From the NCBI GenBank assembly GCA_003605065.1, contig QZJM01000020.1, positions 19,562-83,561 on the forward strand: a DNA stretch of 64,000 bases, in the 5' to 3' direction. Of this stretch, positions 14,711 to 42,700 are shown piece by piece. How positions within the stretch are numbered: position 1 is the stretch's first letter; the number at the start of each line of letters is the position of its first letter. This DNA is from Dethiobacter sp. Lineage in GTDB: Bacteria; Bacillota; Dethiobacteria; DTU022; UBA8154. The notes under the pieces were generated by a model. It was not told the origin of the DNA and searched no databases. It saw nothing but the letters and a program-made list of their open reading frames with translations. A program made the translations under genes and the position numbers.

Positions 14711-14799
14711 GAAGAAAAGGCTTTCGAACTGCTGCAGGGTTGGCCTGTGATCATTGAGGATGACGCCGGTGATTTTAGGGCAGTAAGGTGGGGGATACG

Positions 14800-16098
14800 A
14801 TGAACGATAAGCTGGGAAAAAATAAAAATCAAAAAAAGGAACAAAAAAGACCGGGGGCCCTGGTCCGCATGTTCGGAGTTTTGGGCAATATAATTTTTGT
14901 TTTAATGCTTCTGGTAATGTCGGCGCTGGTATTTTTTCTGGTACAGAGCAAGATCGCGGGAAACCCCCCCGGCGTGGCGGGTTACCAGATGCTCATAGTT
15001 ATCAGCGGCAGCATGAACCCCACCTTCGATACGGGGAGCGTGGTATTTGTGCGACCAATGGACCCAAAAAACCTTGCTGCCGGGGATATTATTACTTTTA
15101 AGGGTTCCGGGGGAAGCGACAAATTAACAACCCACCGGATAGTGGACGTGCATACGGAAGACGGCCTTGGTTTTACCACCCGCGGGGATGCCAACAATGT
15201 CAATGACCCGAACATAGTTCCGGCCCGAAACGTAGTCGGGAAAGTGGTCCTGGCCATACCTTATGCCGGCTACCTGTTCAATTATGTGCAGACCAAAGAA
15301 GGTTATATAGCTTTAATCCTGATACCCGGAGTGCTGATCATTTTTACGGAGCTGTACAAGCTCCTTAAATATGCCAGGCAGGTTGACAAAAAAGAAAGCA
15401 CCGGAAAGAAGGACAAAAGACTGGCTTCCGGAAAGCATCCAGAGGAGGCGGCAGCTGAAATAGAAAATGAAGAGGACGAAGCTGCCCTGCCCGGCGGGGA
15501 AGAACCGGCATTTGTTCCCTATTACGCTCATAAAGCAGGGTTTACGGCAGGTAATTATGAGAATGCTGACTACCCGGTCAGCCAGGTCCGTGACAGGCGT
15601 GAGAATGAAGTTAAAGAGGTGCTGGAGAAAGAAAAAATAATAGCTGCTGTGAAAAAAACTGCCGCAGTGGATGAATTAGCTTTTCTAAATAAAGCTGCGG
15701 TTGTGGATAAAACTGCCGTAGCAAATGAAGCTGCCGCTGTGGATGAAATAGCCGCTGTAGATAAAACTGACATCATAAAAGAAGCTGTCATTCTAAAAGA
15801 AACTGCCGTCGTAAATGAAGCTGTCGTCATAGATGAAATAACTGTTCTAGATAAGATAGCCGCTCTCCCCGCCCAGAGCAGCGAATTCACCCCCGTGACC
15901 AGCCGTAAGCCTTACCACGGCGGGAATGAAGAAGCCAGGGAAAAAATTTGGAGAGAGCGGGCTTTTGCCATCTTGAGCGGTCTGCCCGTGGTTGTGGATG
16001 AAAATGGAGAAGAAAGGGTCTGGAAAGAGCGTGCCTTCGCCATGCTGAGCGGTTTGGCCGTGGTTATTGATGATTCCGGGAAAGAAGAGGTTAGCTAG
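14800..16098 (+). CDS. sipW: SipW-type signal peptidase I (S26B, archaeal/ER-type) with a roughly 240-aa C-terminal repeat-rich extension
   Basis: N-terminal TM segment, catalytic box VISGSMNPTFDTGSVVFV and a second TM (GYIALILIPGVLIIF). AAGGTGGGGG RBS. The extension contains Ala/Val/Asp-rich tandem repeats and two WxERAFAxLSGLPVVxD motifs. Confidence 0.8.
   Translation: MNDKLGKNKNQKKEQKRPGALVRMFGVLGNIIFVLMLLVMSALVFFLVQSKIAGNPPGVAGYQMLIVISGSMNPTFDTGSVVFVRPMDPKNLAAGDIITFKGSGGSDKLTTHRIVDVHTEDGLGFTTRGDANNVNDPNIVPARNVVGKVVLAIPYAGYLFNYVQTKEGYIALILIPGVLIIFTELYKLLKYARQVDKKESTGKKDKRLASGKHPEEAAAEIENEEDEAALPGGEEPAFVPYYAHKAGFTAGNYENADYPVSQVRDRRENEVKEVLEKEKIIAAVKKTAAVDELAFLNKAAVVDKTAVANEAAAVDEIAAVDKTDIIKEAVILKETAVVNEAVVIDEITVLDKIAALPAQSSEFTPVTSRKPYHGGNEEAREKIWRERAFAILSGLPVVVDENGEERVWKERAFAMLSGLAVVIDDSGKEEVS
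15640..15860 (+). repeat. in-frame tandem nucleotide repeats (about 30-60 bp units) encoding an AAVDE/AVVNE-type low-complexity segment inside sipW
   Basis: Seen in the sequence: units such as aaaactgccg-agt-gatgaa-tagc recur about six times. Confidence 0.6.
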
Positions 16099-16102
16099 CC
16101 CT

Positions 16103-16360
16103 ATGACCCAAAGAATCATGGTAAGTATAACAATCCTTACGCTTATGGCGGTGCTGATCGGCGGCGCCACCATGGCCTGGTTTACAGCCCAGGCGGAAAT
16201 AACCGATAACGTATTCCAGGCCGGGACACTGACCATTGACGCACAAGAAACGTGGGCATACGAAAGCGGGCCGTTGACTAACTGGAACCCCGTTTTCAAC
16301 GGGACAAGCAATAAAAACCTCAAAATTGGGGCAGGACTGCTGCAGGGTATGCCGGAATAG
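16103..16360 (+). CDS. short TasA/camelysin-family secreted protein with a SipW-cognate signal peptide
   Basis: Its signal peptide ends in GGATMAWFTAQAEITDNVFQAGTLTID, the SipW-cognate class. It lies immediately downstream of sipW. It is only about 86 aa, against about 260 aa for TasA. Confidence 0.6.
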   Translation: MTQRIMVSITILTLMAVLIGGATMAWFTAQAEITDNVFQAGTLTIDAQETWAYESGPLTNWNPVFNGTSNKNLKIGAGLLQGMPE

Positions 16361-16678
16361 GTGATATCGGCAATGCACCTGTATTTATGGAAACAAGGGA
16401 CATTAAAGGGTTTTTTTAAGGAAATACATTGAAAATTGTAAAAATCTGCAGGAATTTACATTACTTTCATCGAACTAAAGCATCAGAAAACGGTGGAAGA
16501 GAATGACGAGCTTTAGAGTTGCAGGGGCAAATAGGTTTTAATCTAAGGATCCCGGCCGGTGTTACCGGGACGACCGGAACCTGGTACAGCATGCCTTCTA
16601 CCGAACGTCAAAAAACCCTTTTTATTTCTTATAGAGCACCTGTTATTTAAAAAAATTAAAGCGGGCGGTGTAAAAAAA

Positions 16679-18820
16679 ATGGAGCGGAAGAAGCGTCTGG
16701 ATGAAATACATGGGCAGATCATGGAGCTTAAAGATCGTTTTAAACATTTGGGCTACAGGCTGATCCAAGAGGGGGAAAGACTTAAAAACCCCGGTTGTCC
16801 GCCGGACGATGTTCTCTTTCAGGAGGTTGCGGAGGAGACCAAAAAATTTAAACTCCTGACGGAAAAACTGGCAGCGGCGGGAAGAGCATTATCCTGGTCC
16901 GGGCTTAATGGCGGAGTTGATTCCCTGGACAAAATGGAGGAAATGTGGAAAGGTCTTGCCGGGCATTTAACCTACCTATATGTACTGGAACAACAAACGG
17001 AGCAGGCCATTGCTCTTGTTAAAAGAGCTATGCAAGCAACCCTGCCGGGAAAACAATTATCGGCAGAACTGGAGTCTTTCAAGAAAAAACTGCGCTATTA
17101 CGAAGAAGTTCTTTCCCGGAATGTGGATGATGAAGAAGCGGCGGAAATGCGCCGCCAGTTCTTGACGGGGGTTCACCCCCTGATCGCTTTTTTAAGGCTG
17201 GCGGAGGAGTACCTGGGAGACCATGAAGAAGCTTCAGAACTTTTTCTGGTGTCAGCGCGGGAATTTGGAAACTTGCTTACCGTAGCAGCGGCAAGGGGAA
17301 ACCTTATTCTTCCTCAGTCAGATCAAAAAGGTGCAGAAAGAAATGAAGAGGAAGTAAAAATAAAATACGAAGCAAAAAAGGTTAAAGAAGTAGAAAAAAA
17401 GGAAAGCGGAAGTAAGAGTTACAGCGGTTATTTAGATGAAATGAATGTCGAACCGGTGGCCGGCAGGAAGCTGAATCAGCGTGAGAGGCTGGTAGAGCAG
17501 ATCTTTAACCTGATCAGGGATGGTAAGCTGGGACCGGCTTTTTGGCTGAATTGTTACTGTGAACAGGTATGGGAAAAGGCGCCGCTGCCTTCCTGGCTGA
17601 TAAAAGCCGTAGAGATTGCGGAAGTTGTCGAAGGCGATGGCGGCGTGGCCGCCGGATGGCTTTCTTACATTTACAAGCACAATAATTTTGAGAGCCTGCT
17701 GGAAAAGAAAACTGGAGGAGAAAATAAGTTGGTGTTCAGTCTTTTCTCAGCTGCTTCCCTGTTGAGACCGGCCCTGGTGGCACCCGGAAGTGGTGCACCT
17801 CTCCTCCTGAAAAAAATAGGTGGTCTGCCCGGGGGTATTCAGGAACTCTGCGCTGTGCTGGCCGGTAACGGGGAGCAGGTTGGATTGGATTGGAAAAAGG
17901 AATTACAGGCGCTCTCCCACGAGGTAACGACCTGGCAGAAACGGAACCAGAAGTTGACCCTGGCCTCCCCCCTGGCGGTAAAGTTATGGGAGAAGATGCA
18001 GGAAGAAGGAGAATTACTCTATAAACTCCTGCAGCCTGTGAAAGAAAACGCAAAGGGTGCCCTAGAAGATATCCGCATGCTTGTCTCCTACCTGCGTGAA
18101 GAAAACAATCTCAAGAAGGAAGTGGCCGATCTTTATTACGGAATGCAGGATTCAAAAGAGTCCCTGGAAATTTTCCATATACCTGGGTCCTGGCAGGTGC
18201 TGGCCCGTTTAAGAGAGGCTTTAAAGCTGGCTGAACGCTGGTTAAAGCTCCACGAGAGAATTACCAAAAATAAGGAAGCAAGAACTCCCCAGAAAGATGA
18301 TTTGCGGGAACCCCTGTTGTCAGCCAGGAAGGACCTGGAGGGGGCGGCCAGGAAGTATGGGGATGATACCATGGTTAGTGCGGGAATCGCTTTATGCGAG
18401 CGTGTGTTTGATTCCCTGGAAAAATATTTTCAGGAAAGAAGGACGGAAATTCCCACAGCAGAAGTACTGTCTGCTCTGGAGTTGAGCAAGAACCCCCAGT
18501 TGAAACTTAAACCATCCTGGAAGCCTAAAGCAGAAACTGTGGAAAAGCTGGGAAAAGCCCTGGTGGAACTTTTAAATGAAGGAGAAGTAAATACCGGAAA
18601 GGCAGAGACAAAAAACGATGATCTGGAATTTGCTGTGAGAAAAGAGGCCGGCACTTATAATCTTTCGAATAACGATACAGCACTTCCGACCCCTAATCTG
18701 AGAAAGACGTGGGAAAGAGATGAAGTATTATCACCACAGGAACGGGATTTTTTAATGAACACCCTGAGAAGCTTTTATAAGGAAAGAACCGAACAGCAAC
18801 AAGACTTAAATGAAAGCTAA
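16679..18820 (+). CDS. large hypothetical soluble protein (about 713 aa) with no domain I recognise
   Basis: Long ORF, Glu/Lys-rich and predicted helical. Its stop overlaps the start of the next gene, which suggests translational coupling. The track ORF begins at 16559, but MERKKRLDEI at 16679 is the first plausible start. Confidence 0.55.
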   Translation: MERKKRLDEIHGQIMELKDRFKHLGYRLIQEGERLKNPGCPPDDVLFQEVAEETKKFKLLTEKLAAAGRALSWSGLNGGVDSLDKMEEMWKGLAGHLTYLYVLEQQTEQAIALVKRAMQATLPGKQLSAELESFKKKLRYYEEVLSRNVDDEEAAEMRRQFLTGVHPLIAFLRLAEEYLGDHEEASELFLVSAREFGNLLTVAAARGNLILPQSDQKGAERNEEEVKIKYEAKKVKEVEKKESGSKSYSGYLDEMNVEPVAGRKLNQRERLVEQIFNLIRDGKLGPAFWLNCYCEQVWEKAPLPSWLIKAVEIAEVVEGDGGVAAGWLSYIYKHNNFESLLEKKTGGENKLVFSLFSAASLLRPALVAPGSGAPLLLKKIGGLPGGIQELCAVLAGNGEQVGLDWKKELQALSHEVTTWQKRNQKLTLASPLAVKLWEKMQEEGELLYKLLQPVKENAKGALEDIRMLVSYLREENNLKKEVADLYYGMQDSKESLEIFHIPGSWQVLARLREALKLAERWLKLHERITKNKEARTPQKDDLREPLLSARKDLEGAARKYGDDTMVSAGIALCERVFDSLEKYFQERRTEIPTAEVLSALELSKNPQLKLKPSWKPKAETVEKLGKALVELLNEGEVNTGKAETKNDDLEFAVRKEAGTYNLSNNDTALPTPNLRKTWERDEVLSPQERDFLMNTLRSFYKERTEQQQDLNES

Positions 18821-21386
18821 AGAGAAAGGAATGATTAATTCCTTGCCTTCTCCTATCAATGCTACGGGAATACTTTTACACGGCAGCTTGAAGGAGCCTC
18901 CTCTTGCCGAAGAGGCCTTAAGGGCCTTAAATTCAGAGGCTTATTCTTCGGCGGGGTTTAAAAAGGCTGCCGGTTCGGATTATTACTCCTACAGGCAGCT
19001 GGAAGAACTTATTTGTACCCTCACGGAAGCTGAGGATGTCCTGGTGGTTAATAACCTCATGGCGGCGGCCTTTCTAGTTTTCCATACCCTGGCGCGGGGC
19101 AGGGAGATTATTGTTTCCAGGAGGGATCTGCACCAAAATGCTTTTTCCGCTTCCCTGGCCGGGGTTGCCCAGAGTTGTGGGGCATACCTGAAAGAAGTGG
19201 GAGGGAAGGAAACCGCCGCACCCGGGGATTATCAGGGTGCTGTTACGGAGCAGTCGGCCCTGTTTTTGACGATTAACAGTCTGGGCAGTTCTAAAAGGGA
19301 AGCTTTCCATGAAGGTATGCCTGCCGGCTTGGGGAAGCCTGAGCTGGCAGTGGTGGGTATTCTTGATAATGCTGCGCTGCTGGATCTGGCACCTTTCGGG
19401 CTGCCCGACGTGCTGCAGGTCCAAAAGCTGATCACCGGAGGGTTTGACATTGTTGTTTTTAGGGGCGATAAGCTCCTGGGAGGGCCCCCGGCAGGAATTA
19501 TAGCCGGAAAAGGCAGGTATCTTTCCCTGCTTAAGCAGGCAACGCTGGCTTCCGCTTTAAGCGCTGGCAGGATCGATAGGGCGACGCTGGAAGCGACTTT
19601 GGCATTATACCTGGACAAGGAAGAGGCTCTGAAGAAAATCCCTTTGCTGAGCATGATTTCGGCGCCACCCCCCCGTATTGAAAAACGGGCCTGGAAACTT
19701 GTTGAAGAGCTGAAGGATTCACTGGAAGGGGTGTTTAATATCAGTATGACTGCCGGGGAAGCCCATATCACTGAGGAAAGCAACGGTCTGGGGGCACTCC
19801 CCAGTTTTCAGGTGTCTATCAGTTCAGAGAAGCTTTCTGCCGCTCAGATTTCTGAACTGCTGACTAAAGGTAATCCACCGGTAATTCCATGTGAATTGAA
19901 AGAGGCGATTTTGCTTGATCTCAGATCTGTCCAGGAAAAAGAAGATGATCTTTTACTTAATTCCATACTTGATTCCCTGGGAGGAGACCGCAAGGAAATC
20001 CGGGTGCTCGATACAGTTCCCAGTCCCATCTGGACGTTAAATGAAGAGAATACCTTTATTTATGCCAACAAAGCCTGTGAGAATTTCTGGGGGTTGGAGA
20101 ACAGCAGCATCTTAGGTAAAGCAATAAGTGAGATTCTTGCCCCGGGAGAGGCAGGAGCCTTATTAAAGAGTATAAAGACGGTAATGAAAAGCAAAGAAAA
20201 AATCGCCATCGAACTAAAGATGAAATCTTTTGGGAACAAGGATAAATGGATGGATATTATTCTTGTACCGCTCTTAAATGGTCAGGAAGAAATTTCCGGG
20301 GTTACATTTACGGCGCATGATGTTACAGAGCGCAAGCGTACTGAAGAAGAATTGAAATATATCAGTATGCATGATTCACTGACGGGTCTTTATAACCGGG
20401 TTTATTTTGAAGAGGAGATGCGTCGGCTAAACACTCACCGGCACTACCCCCTAAGCATTATTGTCTGTGATGTGGACGGTTTGAAGTTTACAAATGATAT
20501 CCTGGGACATGAAAAAGGAGACAAGCTTTTAAAGACGGCGTCTAATCTTATTAAAAAGCCTTTTCGTACATCCGATGTGGTGGCCAGGGTAGGAGGAGAC
20601 GAGTTTGCCATTATTCTGCCCCGGACCAATGAAAAGACCGCGGAGGAGATCTGTGAACGTATAAAAAAGAATGTCGAAAAATACAACCAGGAAAAGAAAG
20701 GTATTCCCTTGAGCCTTCCCCTTGGTTTTGCCACAGGAGAAGAGGCCTCCGGGGGAATTCTGGAAATATTTAAAAATGCGGACAGCAATATGTATAAAAA
20801 TAAATTTGCCCATGGCAAAGCAGTGAAAAGGCAGGTTTTTGAATCTCTGCTGGAAATTCTGGCGGAGAAAGACTTTATGAGCAAGAGTAAAGCAGAACGA
20901 CTGCAGGAAATGCTGCTGTTGCTTGGACAGGCTGTGGGGATGTCACCGGGGGAAATAAAAAATATTTTATTGCTGTCCAGGGTATATGATATTGGCAAGG
21001 TGAATATCGATGATTCCATTCTCTTTAAAGAAGGAGCGTTAAGTGACGCAGAGTGGGAGGAAATTAAACGCCACCCGGAAACAGGTTATCGTATTGCCCG
21101 TTTTTCAGCGGAAATGAACCCCATCGCCGATTTCATTATGCAGCACCATGAATGGTGGGACGGGAATGGTTATCCTGCCGGCTTAAAGGGGAAGGATATC
21201 CACCTTTACCCCCGCATTTTGGCTATTGTGGACGCCTATCAGGCCATGACCAGTCACAGGCCTTACAGGGAGCTACTTTCCCGTGAAGAAGCCATTCAGG
21301 AACTGAAGAGATGCAGCGGAATTCAGTTCGATCCCCGGCTGGTAGAGATCTTTATAAACTTAATCGACCAGGAGAACTTAGTTTAA
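18810..21386 (+). CDS. multidomain signalling protein: degenerate SelA-like domain, PAS, GGDEF (diguanylate cyclase) and HD-GYP (c-di-GMP phosphodiesterase)
   Basis: The N-terminal roughly 300 aa align to selenocysteine synthase SelA (VLVVNNLMAAAFLV...REIIVSRRDL...FRGDKLLGGPPAGIIAGK...RATLEATLALYL). A PAS domain follows. The GGDEF domain carries RVGGDEFAIIL. The HD-GYP domain carries HHEWWDGNGYPAGLKG. An alternative start is the ATG at 18831. Confidence 0.85.
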   Translation: MKAKEKGMINSLPSPINATGILLHGSLKEPPLAEEALRALNSEAYSSAGFKKAAGSDYYSYRQLEELICTLTEAEDVLVVNNLMAAAFLVFHTLARGREIIVSRRDLHQNAFSASLAGVAQSCGAYLKEVGGKETAAPGDYQGAVTEQSALFLTINSLGSSKREAFHEGMPAGLGKPELAVVGILDNAALLDLAPFGLPDVLQVQKLITGGFDIVVFRGDKLLGGPPAGIIAGKGRYLSLLKQATLASALSAGRIDRATLEATLALYLDKEEALKKIPLLSMISAPPPRIEKRAWKLVEELKDSLEGVFNISMTAGEAHITEESNGLGALPSFQVSISSEKLSAAQISELLTKGNPPVIPCELKEAILLDLRSVQEKEDDLLLNSILDSLGGDRKEIRVLDTVPSPIWTLNEENTFIYANKACENFWGLENSSILGKAISEILAPGEAGALLKSIKTVMKSKEKIAIELKMKSFGNKDKWMDIILVPLLNGQEEISGVTFTAHDVTERKRTEEELKYISMHDSLTGLYNRVYFEEEMRRLNTHRHYPLSIIVCDVDGLKFTNDILGHEKGDKLLKTASNLIKKPFRTSDVVARVGGDEFAIILPRTNEKTAEEICERIKKNVEKYNQEKKGIPLSLPLGFATGEEASGGILEIFKNADSNMYKNKFAHGKAVKRQVFESLLEILAEKDFMSKSKAERLQEMLLLLGQAVGMSPGEIKNILLLSRVYDIGKVNIDDSILFKEGALSDAEWEEIKRHPETGYRIARFSAEMNPIADFIMQHHEWWDGNGYPAGLKGKDIHLYPRILAIVDAYQAMTSHRPYRELLSREEAIQELKRCSGIQFDPRLVEIFINLIDQENLV

Positions 21387-21452: not shown

Positions 21453-22667
21453 ATGGCAGAAGTGGTTATTACCGGTTTAGGTCCTGTGGCCCCCAACGGT
21501 GTAGGTAAAGAGAGCTTCTGGAATGCCCTTAAAGAAGGGAAGTCGGGTATTCGCCGCATCAGCCGCTTTGACCCGGACGGTAGTATTTCCCGGATAGCCG
21601 GTGAGGTTCCACCTGAATGGGTGGAGGCTATCAGCCCCTTTCCCGGAACAAAAAGAGCCTGGAGCACCCATATGGTTATAACTGCGGCACACCTGGCCAT
21701 GGATGATGCTGGCATAAGCAAAGCGGAATTTTCCAAGAGCCTGTCCGGTATCTATGTGGGGATCAGCACCAATGACATGGAGTTTGGTGAACGGGAATAT
21801 GAAACGTTTAAACACTCCGGTTCCACCAAAGCTAATGTTATCTCTTCTTCCTTTCCTCATGCCGCTGCCAGTGAAATAGCCGGCGAATTTAAGTGTGCGG
21901 GGCGGGTAATGACTGTCTCTACGGCATGTTCTTCCGGTATTTTGAGTATCATCTCTGGTGCGGAATCTATCCTGAGGGGCGAGAACGATCTGGTTTTAGC
22001 CGGCGGAGGGGATGCCCCCCTGACTCCCTTTGTTGTTTCCTGTTTTTCCTCTGCGGGCCTTCATCCCACCTCTTATAATGACAGTCCCCTTATGGCCAGC
22101 AGGCCTTTTGATGCTAAAAGGGACGGAGGCGTTTTATCCGAGGGGGCGGGAATGATCGTTATCGAAAACTCCGAGAGGGCTCGTTTAAGGGGGGCAAAGG
22201 TTTATGCCAGGATCAGCGGCTGGGGAGTTGCCAACGCCACTTCCCCGTTGTCTGTGACTTTATCTTTTGTCTCTTCCATAACCCAGGCTCTGCAAAAAGC
22301 CAAACTACCCCTGAATATGCTGGATTATATCTGTGCCCATGCACCCGGCATTAAATTTACAGATAAAGTCGAAACAGAAGCGATTAAAAATGTTTTTGGA
22401 CAGTACGCTTACAACCTGCCGGTTAGCTCCATTAAATCTATGATAGGCAACCCCCTGTCTGCGGCAGGCCCTTTGCAGGTAATTACCACAGCCCTGGTTA
22501 TACAAAATAAGTTTATCCCACCCACCGTAAACTATGAGCACCCTGACCCGGCCTGCGATCTGGATTACGTTCCCAACAGGGGGCGTGTGGCCAGGGTAAG
22601 AAATGCCCTGATAAACCTTTTAGGTGTTGGTGGCTGCATTGTTTCCATGGTTATAACCGAGCCATAG
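21453..22667 (+). CDS. beta-ketoacyl-ACP synthase I/II (FabF/FabB)-like thiolase-fold protein with a non-canonical active site
   Basis: KAS N- and C-domains with VSTACSSG (Cys) and CAHAPG (His). The second catalytic His is replaced by Asn (KSMIGNPLSAAG against canonical KSMTGHLLGAAG). No other fab genes are nearby. Confidence 0.8.
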   Translation: MAEVVITGLGPVAPNGVGKESFWNALKEGKSGIRRISRFDPDGSISRIAGEVPPEWVEAISPFPGTKRAWSTHMVITAAHLAMDDAGISKAEFSKSLSGIYVGISTNDMEFGEREYETFKHSGSTKANVISSSFPHAAASEIAGEFKCAGRVMTVSTACSSGILSIISGAESILRGENDLVLAGGGDAPLTPFVVSCFSSAGLHPTSYNDSPLMASRPFDAKRDGGVLSEGAGMIVIENSERARLRGAKVYARISGWGVANATSPLSVTLSFVSSITQALQKAKLPLNMLDYICAHAPGIKFTDKVETEAIKNVFGQYAYNLPVSSIKSMIGNPLSAAGPLQVITTALVIQNKFIPPTVNYEHPDPACDLDYVPNRGRVARVRNALINLLGVGGCIVSMVITEP

Positions 22668-22670
22668 AGA

Positions 22671-25160
22671 ATGGAGAAAAGTATGATTATTTTTACTATT
22701 GTATTGTTAGCTCTGATAGCAGTGGCTCACGTAGTAATGGGCACAATTATTTATAAAAAGGCTCCCCGTGCTATGCTCAACCGTTTATGCCTGGGTTTTG
22801 CGCTAAATGCCAGTTTATGGAGTGTTTCTGTTCTTTTTGTTATTCTGCAAAATGATTACGAGCAGGCCCTTTTCTGGATTAGAATGTCACATGCCTTGGC
22901 GGCGACTACACCCTCGTTTATGTTTGCCCTGGTTTATTGTTTTAAAGCCGGGATTAAGTATCCTTACAGAAAAGTGTTCTGGGTTTTTTTGTTCAGCCTG
23001 GCACTGGCCTTGTTGTGTTTGACGCCTGCCGTTATTAAGGATGTAGTCCTGGCCGCGGAAGGTAAAATTAAGATTTATGGCCCCGTTTTCCCTCTTTATA
23101 CGATCTTTTTCGCAGTGGTGCCTGTCCTTTCCCTGTACAACCTTTTCCGGCAGCTGCGCCAGTCACGGGGCCTGGTTCGTTTCCAAATACGTTATTTTTT
23201 CGGTGGTATTCTTATTGCTTTTATTTTAGGTAGCCTTGTTAACCTTTTTCTTCCGCTGATGGGCATTACAACAGATAACCTGCGCAGTTTGGGGCCTGTA
23301 TTTACGCTTATAAGCGTTATCTCCATTACTTATGCCATTGCTAAGTACCGTCTGATGGATATAAGCTTAGCCCTTCGCCGGATCATTGCCAATTCCCTGT
23401 CCATAATGCTGGTGGCCGGGATTTATATCTTGGCAATTTTCCTGGCAAAAAAGCAATTTATGGCTTATTCGGATTATTTAACATTATTTTTAATTATTCT
23501 GCTGGTTGTTTCATTCCAGACAATAAAGAACCAGGTACAGTCATTAATTGACCGGTACTTTTTCCGTGGTGCTTATAATTACTTTACGACTCTGAGAAAT
23601 GTTACTAAAGCCATGGTTTCCATTCTTAACAGGGAAAAGCTCCTTTCCTTTCTGACAGACAAGATTATGGAGACTATTTATATCCGGGGGGCTGCTTTTT
23701 TTCTAAGGGAACAAGACGGCTCCTTTACCGCTGTAACAAAAAAATATCTAGCACCTTTTCTTCCTTTGGAGAAAGAATACAGCAAATTGGAGCCCGAAAA
23801 CCCCCTGATCCTGCTCCTGGAAAAAAGGGGAGATGTACTGCTGAAAACTGATTTAAGGGGCGTTGAGCCTGAAGAAAAAAGAGAACTTCTTGTGGGAGAA
23901 ATGAAAAAACTTCATTCTGAAGTGGCTGTGCCGCTGTTTATAGAAGGGAAAATGGACGGTGTTTTTTTCCTGGGTTACAAATTGTCGGGAGAGCCGTATT
24001 CCAAGGAGGATGTAAACCTGCTTTCCACTTTAAGTTATCAGATTGCCGTTTCTCTAAAGAATGCCCGGCTTTACCATGAGATCCTGGAGATTAAGCAATA
24101 TCTGGAGAATGTCCTGGAAAATATGGGTAACGGGTTGATAGCCGTTAATGCGGGGGGAAGGATCACTACTTTTAACAGCACAGCGGAGAAACTTACAGGT
24201 TTAAAAGCCAGGGAGGTACTGGGTAAAAAGGTGGATAAAACCCTTGATCCCGGGTTGTCCTGGCAGTTGCTGCAGACCTTAAATAACGGTCAGAGGAGAA
24301 GTGAAGTGGAAGTAGAGGTGCCGGTAGGTAACTTGACATGCTTTTTGTGCTGCAGCACGGCCCTGGTAGAGTTGAACGATTCAAGGGAACGCGGAGCGAT
24401 TATGGCTCTAAGCGATATCACCCGTATTAAAGAGCTGGAGAGAGAAAAAAGCGAAGTGCAAAGGCTGGCTTCCCTGGGGGAAATGGCCGCAGGAATGGCG
24501 CACGAAATAAAAAACCCGCTTGTATCCATTAAAACCTTTGCGGAACTCCTGCCAGAAAAATACGAAAACCATGAGTTTCGTTACAGTTTTTCCCAGATAG
24601 TATCCCAGGAAATAGAACGTATCAACAACCTGGTCATGGGGCTTCTTAAAATTTCCAGAGATCAGCAGGTCTATAATTATGATGAGGTTAATATTGAAGT
24701 TCTGCTGGACGAAATTTTTCTTTTAGTACTTCCCCAGCTTAATGCGCAAAATATAGGCGTTTATAAGCATTATGAACCGGACGTTCCCGTTATTCAGGCT
24801 GACAGGGAACAGTTAAAACAAGCTCTTTTTAATATATGTTTAAATGGAATTCAGGCCATGCCCGGGGGTGGGGAGCTGAGGGTGGAAATTTTACCTGTTA
24901 TGGTTCTCGCTGGTGAGACGGCCGGCGTTCTTTCCCCGGGGAAAAAGGTAAAGATAGTGATTGAAGATACGGGAATAGGGATTTCTTCTCCGGAAAAAGA
25001 AAAGATATTTGATCCATTTTTTACTACCAAGGCTGATGGGGTGGGAATCGGCTTGAGTATAAGCCATCGTGTGATCACCAGCCATGGGGGGAGCATTCAG
25101 GTCCGCAGCAGTAAAGGTGAAGGGACTGTTTTTGAGATTTACCTTCCGGCCGGGGATTAA
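22671..25160 (+). CDS. sensor histidine kinase: N-terminal 7TM sensor, GAF, PAS, HisKA, HATPase
   Basis: Seven N-terminal TM segments, an H-box AHEIKNPLVSIKTFAELL and complete N/G1/G2 boxes (DTGIGI, GVGIGLS). It starts 4 nt after the KAS-like gene. Confidence 0.85.
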   Translation: MEKSMIIFTIVLLALIAVAHVVMGTIIYKKAPRAMLNRLCLGFALNASLWSVSVLFVILQNDYEQALFWIRMSHALAATTPSFMFALVYCFKAGIKYPYRKVFWVFLFSLALALLCLTPAVIKDVVLAAEGKIKIYGPVFPLYTIFFAVVPVLSLYNLFRQLRQSRGLVRFQIRYFFGGILIAFILGSLVNLFLPLMGITTDNLRSLGPVFTLISVISITYAIAKYRLMDISLALRRIIANSLSIMLVAGIYILAIFLAKKQFMAYSDYLTLFLIILLVVSFQTIKNQVQSLIDRYFFRGAYNYFTTLRNVTKAMVSILNREKLLSFLTDKIMETIYIRGAAFFLREQDGSFTAVTKKYLAPFLPLEKEYSKLEPENPLILLLEKRGDVLLKTDLRGVEPEEKRELLVGEMKKLHSEVAVPLFIEGKMDGVFFLGYKLSGEPYSKEDVNLLSTLSYQIAVSLKNARLYHEILEIKQYLENVLENMGNGLIAVNAGGRITTFNSTAEKLTGLKAREVLGKKVDKTLDPGLSWQLLQTLNNGQRRSEVEVEVPVGNLTCFLCCSTALVELNDSRERGAIMALSDITRIKELEREKSEVQRLASLGEMAAGMAHEIKNPLVSIKTFAELLPEKYENHEFRYSFSQIVSQEIERINNLVMGLLKISRDQQVYNYDEVNIEVLLDEIFLLVLPQLNAQNIGVYKHYEPDVPVIQADREQLKQALFNICLNGIQAMPGGGELRVEILPVMVLAGETAGVLSPGKKVKIVIEDTGIGISSPEKEKIFDPFFTTKADGVGIGLSISHRVITSHGGSIQVRSSKGEGTVFEIYLPAGD

Positions 25161-25213: not shown

Positions 25214-27226
25214 TTGGAAAGGCAGTTGTATAAGTTGAAGCTGGTTGTGCTCATTTCCCAAAAAGAAAGTATCTTAAGGAAAATTAAAGAGTTTATCCCG
25301 GAAGACTATATCCTCCTGGAGGGTGAACCCGGGCCGAAAGGTTTACAGCTGCTGGGGAATATAGTTTCCGGTGTTATCCTGGTGGATACCAGTATCCACG
25401 GTATTCAAATGTGGATCGGAGAGGCCTTGCGGCTGAGAGCTGATTTAACCTACCTGGGAATTGCCGATAGAGCGGCTGCTGAAAATTTTCCATTCCCATT
25501 GTTTTATGACTTCATTTCTCCGCCTTTTAATTCCCGGCAGGTAAGCAGTTTGCTCGAGCGGGCCTGGGAAAGGGGTCAGCTTAATTTTGAACTTAAGACG
25601 CTTAAAAAAAATCCCGGGGGTAATGATGTAAACAGCTCTTTAAACAGCTCTTCCTCCCATCGCCTCAAGGAGCATGTTTTGTGTGAATTCTCCAGGGCGT
25701 TGAGTAATAATTTTAACCGGAACCGTCTCCTGGAGCTTTTTATGGATGCCGTTGCAGAACTGGTACCTGTGGGGAAATTATCACTTTTGTTATTTAACGA
25801 GAACCTGAATAAGTTTATAATTTCGGCGCAAAGAGGGCTGGATCCGCTTTACTGTTCCGGATTACTGTTTAATCCTTCCTCGGGGCTGCTTGCCTGGTTA
25901 ACCGGGGAGGGACGCATCCTTCGTACCGAAGAAGCAGCGGGCTTTGCTAAAACTTCCTCAGAAGTCCTCCAGGAGATGAAGCTGCTGCAGGCTGTCGTTT
26001 GTATACCGCTGGTGGTCCATGGGCAGTTGGTGGGAACTCTTAACCTGGGTCCCAAGGTGACCGGTTCGCTGTTCTCTGACGATGAGCTTGAGGTGCTTTA
26101 TATACTGTCCGGAAATGTTGCTATGGCCTTACGAGATATTGAGCTGCATCACCAGATACGCTATCAAAAATATTTTATTGAAAATATTCTTCAGCGTATG
26201 AATAGCGGTGTTATAGCTATAAACCAGGAAAATCTGATCATAACTTTCAACTATCGCGCCGGAAAAATACTGTCTTTTCAGCCGGAAGAGGTAATGGGTA
26301 AGGATCTGCGTTGTTTGCCCAGCCCCCTTGGAGATTTGCTCTATGACACCCTTACTATGGGCAGGGTGTATCATAAAGAGGAGATTATACTGGCATTCGG
26401 GCATATTCCCCTGGAATTCAGTACCTATCAATTGCTGGATGAAGAGCGGGCTGTTGCCGGGAGTGTGATGATCTTTGATGATATATCAGAAAGAAAACAG
26501 CTGGAGGTAGAGCGCCGCCAGGCCGATCAACTGGATGTTCTTAACAAGTTTGTGGGGCAGCTGGCTCATGAAATTAAAAATCCGATGGTGGCTATACAGA
26601 CTTTTTGCGAACTTTTACCGGAAAAATATGAAGACAGCTCTTTCCGTGATTTTTTTACCCATACCGTTCGCCAGGAAGTTCAGAGGTTAAATGAACTGGT
26701 GGAGCAGCTTATTGCTTTTTCCACTTCACTTTCCTACAAGTTCATGCCTGTAGAGATTCATGAGACCCTGGACAGGGCCCTCTTAATGCTGCAGGAACAG
26801 GGTAAGGGGCAGAAGACCTCCGTTAATACTTCTTATTCACCGGATAAGTTTAACATTAGGGCTGATAAAATCTTACTGGCCAGGTCTTTTTCTTATCTCC
26901 TGAGAAACTCTTTTCAGGCTATGGAAAAAGGAGGCAGCCTTTTTATCCATACATTTTTTGATGGCTCTTTATTTGAAAATGGAGGCGTTGGTATTCACTT
27001 CTGGGATTCCGAAACAAAAACGGAGATCAGTAACGTGGAGAAATTATTTAATCCCCTTTGTGCCCGGGAGAGCGGGTATATATCCCTGGAGCTGCCGGTT
27101 TGCCGTAAAATTATTGAGGATCACGGCGGACATGTCCGAGCGTCTTTAACCAAGGACAAATATCTTAAGTTTGAGGTATATTTGCCGATATTTTCTGGTG
27201 AAGGGGGTGAAAATGTTGCCACATAA
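25214..27226 (+). CDS. paralogous cytoplasmic sensor histidine kinase (pseudo-receiver-like N-terminus, GAF, PAS, HisKA) with a degenerate ATP-binding domain
   Basis: H-box LAHEIKNPMVAIQTFCELL is present. The G1 (DxGxG) and G2 (GxGxGL) boxes of the HATPase domain are not recognisable. The TTG start is uncertain. Confidence 0.7.
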   Translation: MERQLYKLKLVVLISQKESILRKIKEFIPEDYILLEGEPGPKGLQLLGNIVSGVILVDTSIHGIQMWIGEALRLRADLTYLGIADRAAAENFPFPLFYDFISPPFNSRQVSSLLERAWERGQLNFELKTLKKNPGGNDVNSSLNSSSSHRLKEHVLCEFSRALSNNFNRNRLLELFMDAVAELVPVGKLSLLLFNENLNKFIISAQRGLDPLYCSGLLFNPSSGLLAWLTGEGRILRTEEAAGFAKTSSEVLQEMKLLQAVVCIPLVVHGQLVGTLNLGPKVTGSLFSDDELEVLYILSGNVAMALRDIELHHQIRYQKYFIENILQRMNSGVIAINQENLIITFNYRAGKILSFQPEEVMGKDLRCLPSPLGDLLYDTLTMGRVYHKEEIILAFGHIPLEFSTYQLLDEERAVAGSVMIFDDISERKQLEVERRQADQLDVLNKFVGQLAHEIKNPMVAIQTFCELLPEKYEDSSFRDFFTHTVRQEVQRLNELVEQLIAFSTSLSYKFMPVEIHETLDRALLMLQEQGKGQKTSVNTSYSPDKFNIRADKILLARSFSYLLRNSFQAMEKGGSLFIHTFFDGSLFENGGVGIHFWDSETKTEISNVEKLFNPLCARESGYISLELPVCRKIIEDHGGHVRASLTKDKYLKFEVYLPIFSGEGGENVAT

Positions 27227-28247
27227 GCCCAGAATACTGATCGTCGATGATGAACTGGGACCAAGGGAAGCGCTGAGGATGATTTTATCTGATGATTACG
27301 ATGTGGTTGCGGCCAGTAACGGGAATCAGGCCATGGAAAACCTTTCCCGGTTAGAATTTGATCTGGTGATACTGGATATCAGGATGCCCGATATCAGCGG
27401 TATTGACCTTCTGGCCGAGGTGAGGAAAAAAGCTCCGGATACGGAGGTTGTTATGATTACCGCTTATGCCTCCGTGGATACGGCTACCAATGCCCTGCGA
27501 CTCGGTGCCCTGGATTATCTCATTAAACCATTTGATCGGCATTCCGTGAAGGAGGCCGTGGAAAAAGGCCTTTCACGCCGCAGTAAAACTAAAACGCTTA
27601 AGAGTAAGCTGGACGAACTTGAGCTTGTCAACGAGTCCCTGAAAGCGGAAGCTGAAAATGCTTACAATAATATCCACAAGCATTATACGGAAACGGTGCG
27701 GTCGCTGGTAACAGCCATCGATGCTAAAGATTCCTATACCAAGGGGCACCAGGAAAGGGTCGCCATTTATGCTATGCTCCTGGCGGTGGAAGTAAATCTT
27801 TCTGTCGGTGAAATGAGCCTGCTCCAACAGGCAGCGGTACTCCATGATATAGGAAAGATCGGGGTGCTGGAGAACATTCTCAGGAAAAAAGGGCCGCTTA
27901 CACCGGAGGAGTTTAAATTAATTAAACAGCATCCTGTCATTGGGGCGGGGATTATTTCTCCTGTAGAGTTCCTTAAAGAAGCAGTCCCCATAGTTCTTCA
28001 TCATCACGAGAAATTTGATGGGACGGGCTATCCCCGGGGTCTTAAGGGTTTGCACATACCAGAAGGTGCCAGGATCATCACAATTGCCGATGCTGTAGAT
28101 GCCATGTTAACTGAACGCCCTTATGCGCAGGCTAAAACACCCTCGCAGGTAAGAGAGCAGCTGCTCCTCTGCTCGGGAACACAGTTTGATCCCCGGCTGG
28201 TAAGGATTGCTTTAAAAATAGACCTGCCTTCCAGACGTATACTCTAA
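27213..28247 (+). CDS. response regulator with an HD-GYP output domain (c-di-GMP phosphodiesterase class)
   Basis: REC domain (ILIVDDE...LVILDIRMPD) followed by HD-GYP (HHHEKFDGTGYPRGLKG). It overlaps the previous kinase by 14 nt. GGGGG RBS. Confidence 0.85.
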   Translation: MLPHKPRILIVDDELGPREALRMILSDDYDVVAASNGNQAMENLSRLEFDLVILDIRMPDISGIDLLAEVRKKAPDTEVVMITAYASVDTATNALRLGALDYLIKPFDRHSVKEAVEKGLSRRSKTKTLKSKLDELELVNESLKAEAENAYNNIHKHYTETVRSLVTAIDAKDSYTKGHQERVAIYAMLLAVEVNLSVGEMSLLQQAAVLHDIGKIGVLENILRKKGPLTPEEFKLIKQHPVIGAGIISPVEFLKEAVPIVLHHHEKFDGTGYPRGLKGLHIPEGARIITIADAVDAMLTERPYAQAKTPSQVREQLLLCSGTQFDPRLVRIALKIDLPSRRIL

Positions 28248-42000: not shown

Positions 42001-42700
42001 CGGGCGCATTGACAGGGTGGATGTAGCTCACGATAAGGAAGGGCAGGCTTACCTGTGCGTCATCGATTATAAATCGGGACGGACGCAGCTTAAGCTGCCG
42101 GAGATATATTTCGGCCTCTCGCTGCAGGTGTTAACCTACTTGGATATTGTTTTGACCAATGCCCTGACGTGGCTGGGGGAGGAGGCCCTCCCGGCAGGCG
42201 TCCTGTACTTCCGCGTCCACACCCCCCTGATCAGCTCCGGGGTGGTTTTACCCCCCGATAAAATAGAGCAGGAGCTGCGCAGGCGCTATAAAATGAAGGG
42301 GCTGGTGCTGGAGGACCGGGAAATAGTGCGTATGATGGATAACCGCCTGGAAATGGGGTATTCCGAGGTCATCCCCGTGGGGCTGACCAGGGAAGGGAGT
42401 TTTTACCGGAATTCGGCTGCTTTGAGCAGGGAGCGTTTTGCCCTGCTGCGCGAGCACGTACGCCACCTTATTAAGGCTGCGGCAGGGGAAATTGCCGGGG
42501 GGCTGGTGGAGATCGCGCCCTACCGCCTGGGCAGGAGCAAGGCCTGTACATACTGCTCCTATCAGGCGGTATGCCAGTTTGATACGGCGCTGGAAGGGAA
42601 CGGCTTTCGCCTGTTAAAGGGCGGGGAAGCGGAAGGCATCTGGCAGGGCCCGGAAAAAAGGACGGGAAAAGGGAGGGGTAAGGAAGATGACAGGCAGTGA
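39008..42700 (+). CDS. addB: ATP-dependent helicase/nuclease subunit B (AddB/RexB)
   Basis: N-terminal Walker A GRAGSGKS and a C-terminal PD-(D/E)xK nuclease with an Fe-S cysteine cluster (CPFSHF...CTYCSYQAVCQ). Confidence 0.9.
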   Translation: MGLRLVLGRAGSGKSELCLGEISRELKERPDGYPLIYIVPEQATFQAEYALAAFYGLGGTIRGQVLSFRRLAWKVMQEAGSGKALFIDDAGKGMVLRKALEKLKGELRVFRHAGEQVGVLDNLVQLYNQLKRSCIDVCRLKETFHKHAETGEGLSSLFKEKMKDLILILEEAEGELTGRYLDNEDYLNLLALQMPGSSFLKGAEVWVDGFYSFNSQEYLVLEGLLKICRRVTVTVCLHRDCSPGEKVDELDPFYPAAITCQKLQQRAKAGGLYLEKVILAEENLPRFRGRPGLSYLERNLHCYPVKPFEGEVSSLRLAAAPHRRGEVEYLARELIGLIRDGGWRWRDMAVIVSSPDDYRDIISTVFGDYQIPFFLDQKRPVIHHPLVEFIRSSLEVVNRNWRYEAVFRCIKTEFLLPFAEDKNERQKWRERADRLENYVLAFGIQGALWLGEEPWKFRLRDTLEEEDEGEGTLSGGEEAYLRLINETRRMVSAPLIRFREKFKVAGTVREKTMAVYELLSDARAWDRLELWRGEALYRGNPEKAREHLQVYKGVINLMDQLVEIMGEQKMPATLYARIVEAGLESLRLSLVPPSLDQVFVGDVERSRPGAASFVFLLGVNDGVLPSRPREDGIFSEEEQEAVSSWGLELAPGERRRLLDGQFLIYMALTRAARGLWVSYPLADEEGRALVPSLLMAHLKELFPSLQEELLAAEPDDEDNLWGQVAPCSCTGRHGDSFEESPAGYGGDSSVIKYAGAAGSEREGRYAAALWPHVVHPRRTLSHLAVKLSRWKTGAKIHSLWWEVYNWYAAEELWRGQAKRLLGGIFYENREKPLSSKTSLQLYGKEFKASVSRLERYRACPFSHFISHGLRLRERQLYRLESPDIGRFFHAALRNFALSLQEKKLEWGDLESQKCLQLAAEEVERLVPRLQKEILLSSSRYRYLAGKLNKTVGQAVLMLGEHARRSSFKPVGLELAFGPGGDLPGAGFELENGCQVELAGRIDRVDVAHDKEGQAYLCVIDYKSGRTQLKLPEIYFGLSLQVLTYLDIVLTNALTWLGEEALPAGVLYFRVHTPLISSGVVLPPDKIEQELRRRYKMKGLVLEDREIVRMMDNRLEMGYSEVIPVGLTREGSFYRNSAALSRERFALLREHVRHLIKAAAGEIAGGLVEIAPYRLGRSKACTYCSYQAVCQFDTALEGNGFRLLKGGEAEGIWQGPEKRTGKGRGKEDDRQ

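What the first reader, a model, noticed from the sequence alone, without database searches (positions are those of the whole stretch)
16679..18820. 713-aa orphan protein translationally coupled to the signalling operon
This long ORF is Glu/Lys-rich and predicted to be all-helical. It has no P-loop, no TM segment and no motif I can place. Its stop (18818-18820) overlaps the next gene's start region. Its size, its position at the head of the operon and the lack of recognisable homology make it the best single candidate here for a new protein family.
Basis: inference. Interest (0 to 1): 0.5.

Follow-up and report, generated by a model that had tools for sequence, protein, structure and literature searches.

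The report
Free-standing helical module beside c-di-GMP enzyme
The "orphan" is a real, uncharacterised all-helical protein, but it has relatives: it is a stand-alone copy of the front ~650 residues of a widespread family of giant bacterial ATPases, and in Dethiobacter-like bacteria it is nearly always encoded directly in front of an enzyme that makes or breaks the second messenger c-di-GMP.

Summary

The free-standing forms make one clade of 26 representatives. In 14 of 17 independent contexts a PAS-GGDEF-HD-GYP gene follows directly; two others have PilZ next door. A C-terminal motif (T/S-x-Q-E-R/K-E/D-F-I/L) occurs in 13 of those 14 and in no long form.

Best reading (inferred): a non-catalytic adaptor that docks on the c-di-GMP enzyme. 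The claimed stop/start overlap depends on a non-conserved ATG. It is an undescribed domain family of unknown function.

The parts
16447..16461 (+). Conserved upstream motif TGCAGGAATTTACAT, probably a promoter or operator element of the operon
   Evidence: Identical 15-mer upstream of the orthologues in L001 and L007 and near-identical in L008, although the proteins are only ~40% identical. It is the only exact copy in the window. Function not tested.
16679..18820 (+). CDS of the 713-aa helical protein (the finding); a free-standing copy of the N-terminal module of the long ATPase family
16679..17308 (+). N-terminal helical domain (residues 1-210): three long helices (2-36, 44-70, 83-118) plus short helices
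17327..17455 (+). Disordered E/K-rich linker (residues 217-259)
   Evidence: pLDDT mostly below 60, with segments 217-224 and 239-259 below 50. Length and sequence vary between homologues.
17456..18598 (+). Conserved all-helical core (residues 260-640) carrying the family signatures PAFWL, P.PSWL, LLRPALVAPGSGA, W419, W437, W521 and NPQL.L.P.W.P
   Evidence: 48 columns at >=70% identity, only 3 of them polar. pLDDT mostly >90. No solved structure aligns more than ~175 residues.
18731..18814 (+). C-terminal tethered helix with motif SPQERDFL (residues 685-692; helix 686-712), separated from the core by a stretch that is disordered at residues 642-668
   Evidence: The motif occurs in 13 of 14 short forms that are followed by a GGDEF-HD-GYP gene. 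It is absent from the PilZ-context and other-context short forms and from every long form in the set. pLDDT profile.
18831..21386 (+). Partner gene: SelA-like PLP domain, PAS, GGDEF (with RxxD I-site), HD-GYP. An alternative start at ATG 18810 would overlap the orphan's stop
   Evidence: Pfam, NCBIfam, motifs, start-site comparison.
21453..22667 (+). FabF-like beta-ketoacyl synthase, a conserved member of the operon
   Evidence: Pfam. Synteny in L001, L002, L007, L008, L093, L097 and L101.
22671..25160 (+). 7TM-GAF-PAS histidine kinase
   Evidence: Pfam; synteny.
25214..27226 (+). GAF-PAS histidine kinase
   Evidence: Pfam; synteny.
27213..28247 (+). Response regulator with HD-GYP domain (HD and GYP motifs intact); probable last gene of the operon
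   Evidence: Sequence and motifs. Syntenic genes annotated Response_reg + HD_5 in L001, L002, L007 and L095.

Best explanation
Identity (well supported). The protein is a free-standing, non-catalytic, cytoplasmic helical protein. It is homologous end to end with the N-terminal ~650-790-residue module of a large, undescribed family of ~1,850-aa P-loop ATPases of AAA_22/nSTAND type. It belongs to a single clade of short forms that lack the ATPase.

Mechanism (inferred). In this clade the module works as an adaptor subunit of a local c-di-GMP signalling unit. It is made from the first cistron of the operon, next to a PAS-GGDEF-HD-GYP enzyme. It binds that enzyme through a short C-terminal helix (T/S-x-Q-E-R/K-E/D-F-I/L) that hangs on a disordered tether. 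The two large helical domains serve as the interaction surface that links c-di-GMP synthesis or breakdown to a partner or target. In the long relatives the same module is driven by the fused NTPase switch; in the short forms that switch has been replaced by the c-di-GMP machinery (GGDEF-HD-GYP, or PilZ in two loci). It is not resolved whether the module is the input to the enzyme or the output of the signal.

The confidence given (0.4) is for the whole statement including the mechanism. For the identity part alone I would give about 0.9.
For: Homology.
- The profile of 9 close relatives hits 848 representatives (379 at E<=1e-10). Long proteins match profile positions ~8-605 in one stretch.
- tblastn of long proteins finds the orphan in the window at 6e-28.
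- Conserved columns span residues 1-640.
- Adding these sequences raised AlphaFold pLDDT from 58 to 86 and pTM from 0.30 to 0.64.
- The long-form architecture is constant: module, ~370 aa, Walker A, Walker B. Pfam sees AAA_22/nSTAND1 there.

Non-catalytic. Of 48 columns at >=70% identity across 141 sequences, only 3 are polar: R363, E513 and D/E552. There is no P-loop or TM segment.

Short clade. 26 representatives, all under 1,000 aa, form one NJ clade.

Link to c-di-GMP.
- A GGDEF-HD-GYP gene lies directly downstream in 14 of 17 independent contexts, including loci without SelA, KAS or the methyltransferase.
- PilZ genes are adjacent in the two sortase/SipW contexts.

Docking tail. The motif is present in 13 of 14 GGDEF-linked forms and in none of the 3 other-context short forms. 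In the full protein set the only matches are short proteins under 760 aa; no long form has it. It lies after a segment with pLDDT below 50.

Own regulatory region. A conserved upstream 15-mer is present.
Against: - No physical interaction was tested, and no complex prediction could be run.
- Gene adjacency and motif co-occurrence are correlative, and many of the 14 contexts come from related Bacillota MAGs.
- One divergent GGDEF-linked form (L102) lacks the tail motif, and one short form (P0016, L094) has no c-di-GMP gene nearby.
- The long relatives sit in defence-like neighbourhoods (PLD+SNF2 helicase, beta-CASP nuclease, plasmids, transposases). The ancestral role of the module may therefore be unrelated to second-messenger signalling.
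- The NJ tree has no support values and is midpoint-rooted.
Confidence: 0.4

Rival explanations
1. The module is itself a c-di-GMP receptor or effector of a new type. It binds the nucleotide made by the neighbouring enzyme (or works below PilZ) and executes the output, for example control of SipW/TasA/sortase-type surface fibres.
For: The common denominator of 16 of 17 short-form contexts is a c-di-GMP component: GGDEF-HD-GYP or PilZ. SipW, TasA/camelysin-like and sortase genes flank the gene in L004 and L012, and a SipW-like gene plus a TasA-type leader ORF lie directly upstream in the window.
Against: There is no PilZ-type RxxxR or D/NxSxxG motif, and only one conserved Arg (R363) in the whole module. 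Nucleotide binding cannot be judged with these tools. The surface-fibre link rests on 3 loci, and in the window those genes are separated from the orphan by a 320-nt spacer with its own conserved motif.
Confidence: 0.2
2. It is a conflict/defence effector module, as in the long ATPases, that has come under c-di-GMP control. It would be a toxic or growth-arresting helical effector (membrane- or macromolecule-targeting) released by signalling instead of by an NTPase switch.
For: The long relatives look like defence genes. They form two-gene operons with a ~380-aa partner in 33 of 80 loci, next to an HKD+SNF2 helicase that matches PADLOC C3a139 at 4e-127 or a beta-CASP nuclease, and they occur on plasmids and near transposases. 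The same ATPase chassis occurs with a different N-terminal part (RNaseH-domain protein, Azospirillum), as expected for swappable effector or sensor modules. There are weak profile hits of the N-terminal bundle to plant CC-NLR CC domains (E 0.07-0.11).
Confidence: 0.12
3. It is a decaying remnant of a long ATPase gene (a truncated pseudogene-like ORF) with no function of its own, co-transcribed with the signalling genes by accident.
For: It lacks everything downstream of the module. One locus (L101) does hold a fragmented copy.
Against: Intact ORFs of similar length are conserved in 26 representative clusters down to ~30% identity, with conserved gene order, a clade-specific C-terminal motif and a conserved upstream element. 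The confident AlphaFold model shows a complete fold.
Confidence: 0.03
4. It is a phage or plasmid structural protein (for example tape-measure-like) resident in the chromosome.
For: Long helical, E/K-rich composition. The best BFVD matches are tape-measure proteins.
Against: Those BFVD matches have E>=3e-3, TM<=0.14 and rmsd>30 A. tblastn finds no match in 50,697 phage or 72,556 plasmid records. No PHROG reaches E<0.08. The neighbours are chromosomal signalling genes.
Confidence: 0.01

Closest known systems
Unnamed family of ~1,850-aa 'ATP-binding protein'/'AAA family ATPase'/'hypothetical protein' genes (e.g. Salinibacter ruber pSR118 WP_162892365.1; MAG Deltaproteobacteria MBI3801876.1)
   Same: The N-terminal ~650-790 residues are homologous to the whole orphan. 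They share the same domain order and the signatures LRPALLAPxTGA, the conserved Trp residues and the xEAxxFAxRW helix.
   Different: The long proteins continue into a P-loop ATPase (GGRQLGKT, LLLDEADRF) and a ~500-aa C-terminal region. They are followed by a ~380-aa partner gene and sit in defence-like neighbourhoods across many phyla. The orphan has none of these and instead carries a clade-specific C-terminal tail motif. This family is itself uncharacterised.
STAND / AAA_22 / nSTAND1 NTPases of bacterial conflict systems (Pfam PF13401, PF20703; Kaur et al. 2020, PMC7159879)
   Same: The ATPase part of the long relatives scores weakly against these models (E 3e-8 to 3e-3). The overall logic, with a variable N-terminal module, a central NTPase and a C-terminal region, is similar.
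   Different: The orphan has no NTPase at all. The Pfam scores are at or just below the gathering cut-offs in most long proteins (AAA_22 exceeds its cut-off in two), and no PADLOC or NCBIfam model matches. I did not find the helical module described in that literature, though my search was limited.
Accessory or adaptor proteins of c-di-GMP enzymes, and PilZ-type receptors
   Same: Encoded next to a GGDEF-HD-GYP enzyme or a PilZ protein. Apparently non-enzymatic.
   Different: No sequence or structural similarity to PilZ or any other known c-di-GMP-binding domain. About 5 times larger than PilZ, and a different all-helical fold.
[not shown]
   Different: Identity is 5-17%, rmsd is often above 5-10 A, and no match covers the 380-residue core. 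These are fold-level commonplaces, not homologues.

Membership tests
N-terminal helical module of the unnamed ~1,850-aa ATPase family | Profile similarity over the whole module in one stretch | tested here: met
   The profile built from the orphan and 8 relatives matches long proteins at positions ~8-605, E down to 4e-63. The reverse tblastn of P0029 against the window gives 6e-28.
N-terminal helical module of the unnamed ~1,850-aa ATPase family | Signature columns: LRPALLAPxTGA, A287, P304, G322, W419, W437, W521, WxP near residue 614 | tested here: met
   All are present in the orphan (LLRPALVAPGSGA and the rest), at 73-98% conservation across 141 sequences.
Full-length member of the ~1,850-aa ATPase family | Fused P-loop ATPase (Walker A GGRQLGKT, Walker B LLLDEADRF) ~370 residues after the module | tested here: not met
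   No Walker A in the orphan. The ORF ends at residue 713, and nothing else in the window matches the ATPase part.
Full-length member of the ~1,850-aa ATPase family | ~380-aa partner gene directly downstream (33 of 80 loci; start within 60 nt of the long gene's stop or overlapping it in 31 of the 33) | tested here: not met
   An HMM of the partner finds nothing in the window or in any short-form locus.
GGDEF-HD-GYP-linked short clade (defined here) | Free-standing gene directly upstream of a PAS-GGDEF-HD-GYP gene | tested here: met
   True of the window and of 13 further independent loci.
GGDEF-HD-GYP-linked short clade (defined here) | C-terminal motif T/S-x-Q-E-R/K-E/D-F-I/L after a disordered tether | tested here: met
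   SPQERDFL at residues 685-692. The tether at residues 642-668 has pLDDT below 50.
STAND / AAA+ NTPase | Walker A and Walker B motifs, NTPase fold | tested here: not met
   No motif, no Pfam AAA hit, and an all-helical model without a beta-sheet.
PilZ-type c-di-GMP receptor | RxxxR and D/NxSxxG motifs; PilZ beta-barrel | tested here: not met
   Neither motif is present, there is no PF07238 hit, and the model is all-helical.
Any c-di-GMP-binding protein | Direct binding of c-di-GMP | not testable with these tools
   Needs a binding assay. Only one conserved Arg (R363) is available as a candidate contact.
Phage or plasmid structural protein | Sequence or fold similarity to phage or plasmid proteins | tested here: not met
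   No tblastn hit in the phage or plasmid collections. PHROGs E>=0.085. BFVD TM<=0.14.
CC domain of CC-NLR / alpha-pore-forming toxins | Significant sequence-profile or fold match to the four-helix CC bundle or the ClyA-type fold | tested here: inconclusive
   [not shown]

The most novel reading that the evidence does not exclude
The ~650-residue helical module is a new kind of signalling output or adaptor domain with a fold not represented in the PDB, and bacteria plug it into different molecular switches. In many phyla it is fused to a STAND-like ATPase (and occasionally to a complete sigma-70). In Dethiobacter-like Bacillota it is free-standing and docked by a tethered C-terminal helix to a PAS-GGDEF-HD-GYP enzyme. 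The short form would then be a previously unrecognised component of c-di-GMP signalling, and it would offer a way to learn what the large, apparently defence-related ATPase family does.
Probability: 0.3. Interest if true: 0.7.

Novelty: new variant of a known kind. Interest (0 to 1): 0.5.

Why it matters
No curated library (Pfam-A 2025, NCBIfam 2026, PADLOC 2023, PHROGs) models this module, and no solved structure shares its core fold. Yet it occurs in at least 848 representative protein clusters across many phyla, mostly as the N-terminal part of giant ATPases that look like defence or conflict genes.

The free-standing version here offers a simpler system for finding out what the module binds or does. 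It has a well-defined enzymatic neighbour (GGDEF-HD-GYP) and a candidate docking motif. If the proposed docking is real, it adds a new accessory component to c-di-GMP signalling in anaerobic Bacillota, and it shows a domain moving between an NTPase-driven system and a second-messenger-driven one.

At minimum, the result justifies a new domain-family definition and corrects the 'orphan' label and the annotated start codon.

Tried and rejected
- Curated libraries. Pfam, PADLOC, NCBIfam, PHROGs and PDB sequences, with the single protein and with the A1 profile, gave nothing significant.
- First AlphaFold run with 9 sequences. Too poor to use (pLDDT 58), and its Foldseek-PDB search was meaningless.
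- Word-indexed search with the mixed alignment A4. It returned only the 9 known relatives plus one weak hit.
- Genome scan with A4.
- The afdb50 fold library was unavailable.
- Rfam on the whole window at gathering threshold and on the 390-nt leader at E<=5 gave no family, in particular no c-di-GMP riboswitch. The leader fold is not unusually stable, z -0.73.
- The sigma-70-type promoter and terminator scan was not above the shuffled expectation.
- The JGI name 'chemotaxis protein histidine kinase CheA' for P0002 was rejected: no Pfam domain supports it, and the protein has a long E/A-rich low-complexity linker.
- The TerB hit (E 0.42) and the mannonate dehydratase hit (E 0.15) were rejected as chance.
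- Literature searches (SelA+GGDEF+HD-GYP; Dethiobacter+c-di-GMP; STAND+sigma factor; HD-GYP/GGDEF/ketoacyl) found no description of this protein or operon.
- I looked for PilZ, TasA-like or sortase genes from L004 in the window. Only the SipW-like gene is shared.
Full report
**1. The observation**

- The + strand carries an uninterrupted ORF ending with TAA at 18818-18820. The longest version starts at GTG 16559 (753 aa) and the ATG at 16679 gives 713 aa.
- The identical 753-aa protein is in NCBI as 'MAG: hypothetical protein C4554_03105 [Dethiobacter sp.]' on a 90-kb contig.
- All homologues align from the ATG, the family profile starts at residue 41 of the 753-aa version, and a GG(C/T)GG(T/G)G element sits 8-10 nt upstream of the ATG in several orthologues. 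16679 is therefore the better start, and the deposited call is probably 40 codons too long.
- Composition is L 14.2%, E 12.2%, K 9.4%. There is no Walker A and no HExxH or CxxC motif. The most hydrophobic 19-mer (KD 1.58) is the conserved helix LVFSLFSAASLLRPALVAP, not a TM segment.
- GC and GC3 equal those of the neighbouring genes, so nothing suggests recent import.
- No Pfam, PADLOC, NCBIfam, PHROG or PDB-sequence match was found.

**2. The junction with the next gene**

- The downstream ORF can be opened at ATG 18810, which would overlap the stop by 11 nt. That ATG has no Shine-Dalgarno element.
- The conserved N-terminus of the homologues (LP.PINATG) corresponds to ATG 18831 or TTG 18843.
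- In five homologous loci the gap is 16-40 nt, with a clear SD.
- The two genes are tightly packed and surely co-transcribed. Overlap-type coupling is not a conserved feature.

**3. Head of the operon**

- Upstream lies a 320-nt non-coding stretch. It holds the 15-mer TGCAGGAATTTACAT (16447-16461), which is identical upstream of orthologues that are only ~40% identical in protein (L001, L007; near-identical in L008). It is unique in the window.
- The genes further upstream differ between loci: a SipW-like peptidase here, an ABC transporter or a penicillin-binding protein elsewhere. The downstream genes are conserved.
- No Rfam family is present, even at E<=5, and the leader is not unusually structured.

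**4. Close relatives and their context**

- A single-sequence search of 5.8 billion proteins gives only 9 clusters (39-53% identity), all from Bacillota or Dethiobacter-type metagenomes.
- Together with a metagenome scan and look-ups of further short relatives, I obtained 17 independent genomic contexts.
- In 14 of them the next gene encodes a PAS-GGDEF-HD-GYP protein (window, L001, L002, L007, L008, L011, L093, L095, L096, L097, L098, L100, L101, L102).
- The rest of the operon is usually present: SAM methyltransferase (absent in the window), FabF-like KAS, 7TM histidine kinase, GAF-PAS histidine kinase, and response regulator with HD-GYP. It is not obligatory. L095 lacks the KAS and methyltransferase, L102 has only the pair, and in L093, L095 and L101 the partner has no SelA-like domain. 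The constant unit is therefore helical protein plus PAS-GGDEF-HD-GYP.
- Two contexts differ. P0002 (L004/L005) lies between a PilZ gene and SipW, TasA/camelysin-like and sortase-substrate genes. P0009 (L012) is followed by a sortase and a PilZ gene.
- One short form (P0016, L094) lies among unrelated mobile-element-type genes.

**5. Not an orphan**

- An exhaustive HMMER search with the profile of the 9 relatives against 1.84 billion cluster representatives gave 848 hits at E<=1e-3, 379 at <=1e-10 and 76 at <=1e-30.
- After ~25 short proteins, the list consists mainly of ~1,800-2,000-aa proteins whose N-terminal ~750 residues match profile positions ~8-605 in a single stretch.
- In these proteins a Walker A motif follows ~370 residues after the module.
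- A 39-sequence alignment shows a strongly conserved ATPase (GSCFIYGGRQLGKTALL; ILLLLDEADRFL; FKVVFAGLHNVQR; NYYPSLIQLYC) and a further ~500-residue C-terminal region.
- Pfam sees only borderline AAA_22, nSTAND1, AAA_16 and ATPase_2 there. NCBIfam, PADLOC and PDB sequences see nothing.
- Mapped on the orphan, conserved columns run from residue ~10 to ~640.
- Reverse tblastn of long proteins against the window finds only this ORF, at E 6e-28.
- Independent support for true homology: adding the distant sequences raised the AlphaFold model from pLDDT 58 / pTM 0.30 to pLDDT 85.8 / pTM 0.64.

**6. What the long family looks like**

They come from Cyanobacteria, Myxococcota, Acidobacteriota, many Actinomycetes, Alpha-, Beta- and Deltaproteobacteria, Chloroflexota, Planctomycetota, Latescibacterota and others. 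71 of the 79 long proteins in the loci kept carry the module.
- Clustering of flanking ORFs shows a ~380-aa gene downstream in 33 of 80 loci. In 31 of those its start lies within 60 nt of the long gene's stop or overlaps it, most often by a 4-nt ATGA overlap; one copy lies 79 nt and one 3.7 kb downstream. It has no Pfam or PADLOC match.
- An HKD(PLD)+SNF2 helicase occurs in 14 loci, with a full-length match to PADLOC model C3a139 at 4e-127. A beta-CASP metallo-nuclease occurs in 8 actinomycete loci.
- Copies occur on plasmids, annotated 'ATP-binding protein', 'AAA family ATPase' or 'hypothetical protein', next to transposases.
- The same ATPase chassis also occurs behind a different N-terminal part in an Azospirillum 'RNaseH domain-containing protein'.
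- Two representatives carry a complete sigma-70 (regions 1.2-4) fused in front of the module.
- All this resembles NTPase-based conflict systems with exchangeable N-terminal modules. The family itself is undescribed in every resource I could query.

**7. Structure**

- The confident model has four parts: an N-terminal domain (1-210; three long helices plus short ones), a disordered E/K-rich linker (217-259), a large all-helical core (260-640), and a tail in which a low-confidence stretch (642-668) precedes a terminal helix (686-712).
- BFVD gives only tape-measure-like noise, with TM<=0.14.
- The core fold is thus not represented among solved structures at this sensitivity.
- Of 48 columns conserved at >=70% in 141 sequences, 45 are hydrophobic, Pro, Gly or Trp. 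Only R363, E513 and D/E552 are polar. This is the signature of a scaffold, not of an enzyme.

**8. The short clade and its tail**

- In a neighbour-joining tree of the module, 26 representatives, all under 1,000 aa, form one clade that includes the window protein. The next branches hold P0028 (893 aa), P0029 (1,819 aa) and P0034 (1,244 aa) (no support values).
- The C-terminal motif T/S-x-Q-E-R/K-E/D-F-I/L (SPQERDFL at 685-692 here) is present at the very end of 13 of the 14 GGDEF-linked proteins, including those whose partner lacks SelA.
- It is absent from the two PilZ-context proteins and from P0016. In the set of 161 proteins the only matches are short proteins under 760 aa; no long form has it.
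- A short conserved helix on a disordered tether that co-occurs with one particular neighbour is what a docking motif would look like. This is inference, not demonstration.

**9. The partner**

- The product of 18831-21386 has a SelA-like PLP domain lacking the first ~70 positions of the SelA model. I recall those positions as the N-terminal tRNA-binding part of SelA. The domain keeps the GDKLLGGP motif, which I recall as containing the SelA Schiff-base lysine; both points are from memory and were not tested.
- It also has a PAS domain, a GGDEF domain with an intact GGDEF motif and RxxD I-site, and an HD-GYP domain with an intact HHEWWDGNGYP motif.
- In the HD-GYP domain the HD dyad reads YD. 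That position is H in five orthologues, Y in three and L in one.
- The response-regulator HD-GYP at the end of the operon has both motifs intact.

**10. Interpretation**

- Shown: the ORF; its family relations; its architecture; its lack of catalytic signatures; its conserved pairing with the GGDEF-HD-GYP gene; and the clade-specific tail.
- Inferred: it acts as a non-enzymatic adaptor that docks on the c-di-GMP enzyme and links it to an input or a target, and the c-di-GMP machinery has taken the place that the fused NTPase switch occupies in the long relatives.
- I put ~0.9 on the identity statement and ~0.35-0.4 on the adaptor mechanism.
- Rivals are a direct c-di-GMP receptor or effector (0.2), a conflict-type effector under c-di-GMP control (0.12), a functionless remnant (0.03) and a phage or plasmid structural protein (0.01).

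**11. Verdict**

- It is a free-standing member of a large, undescribed domain family with an apparently new fold, recruited into a c-di-GMP operon.
- Its function remains unknown, and the mechanism offered is testable.

Noticed in passing
window 14788-16098 and 16103-16360: Directly upstream lies a SipW-type signal peptidase (NCBIfam SipW 1e-42, residues 32-210) with an unusual ~225-residue C-terminal extension rich in A/V/D/E/K repeats. It is followed by an 85-aa ORF whose first 50 residues match the camelysin/TasA (Peptidase_M73) leader and N-terminus. The ORF then stops, so it is either a very short TasA-like protein or a truncated one.
   Followed up: partly
window 18831-21386 (residue 719 of the product): The HD-GYP domain of the SelA-PAS-GGDEF-HD-GYP protein reads YDIGK instead of HDIGK, while the HHExxDGxGYP motif is intact. 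The position is H in L001, L007, L008, L093 and L097, Y in L095 and L101, and L in L002. The phosphodiesterase may be inactive or altered in part of the clade, while GGDEF and its I-site are invariant.
   Followed up: partly
window 18831-19950: A SelA-like PLP-enzyme domain (Pfam SelA 8e-61, GDKLLGGP motif kept, first ~70 positions of the SelA model missing) is fused to a c-di-GMP enzyme as its N-terminal, presumably sensory, domain. I found no description of this architecture in the literature searches.
   Followed up: partly
window 21453-22667; L001 5216-5983 and equivalents: A FabF-like ketoacyl synthase, preceded in most relatives by a SAM methyltransferase that is missing in the window, is embedded in a purely regulatory operon. 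Together with the PLP domain this might make or modify a small signalling molecule sensed by the 7TM kinase. Not tested.
   Followed up: no
window 16559-16678: The NCBI protein (753 aa) starts at GTG 16559. Homologue alignment and the SD position indicate ATG 16679, so the deposited annotation is probably 40 codons too long.
   Followed up: yes
L013-L092, L103 (long family): The long ATPase gene and a ~380-aa gene of unknown function form a recurrent, translationally coupled pair across many phyla. An HKD+SNF2 helicase (PADLOC C3a139) or a beta-CASP nuclease is often adjacent. No PADLOC model hits the pair, so it may be an undescribed defence system.
   Followed up: partly
P0047 (residues 96-393) and P0052 (residues 235-495): Two long-family representatives carry a complete sigma-70 (regions 1.2, 2, 3, 4) fused N-terminally to the helical module. 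In L095 a sigma-70-family gene lies ~1.2 kb upstream of a short form. This is a possible hint of a link to transcription.
   Followed up: no
L104 1873-9084 (Azospirillum ramasamyi WP_111068371.1): A 2,403-aa 'RNaseH domain-containing protein' shares only the ATPase chassis (residues 823-1685 of P0029) and lacks the helical module, so the chassis is combined with alternative N-terminal parts.
   Followed up: partly
L101 8001-9175: In a 272-kb marine-sediment contig the helical gene appears fragmented: a 222-aa ORF matches residues 444-641, and tblastn matches 266-641. The GGDEF-HD-GYP gene is shortened to 322 aa, while the KAS, both kinases and the RR-HD-GYP are intact. The pair may be decaying together.
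   Followed up: no
L004 2103-3020 and 8631-9476: Surface proteins next to the PilZ-context relative end in PKTGEFPP followed by a hydrophobic stretch and basic residues. This looks like a non-canonical sortase sorting signal, and a sortase gene lies at the end of the cluster.
   Followed up: no
window 39008-46580: Two very large + strand ORFs (1,230 and 1,297 aa) have clearly higher GC (0.58) and GC3 (0.66-0.67) than the rest of the window. By size and position before a run of small genes they could be rpoB/rpoC. Not tested.
   Followed up: no
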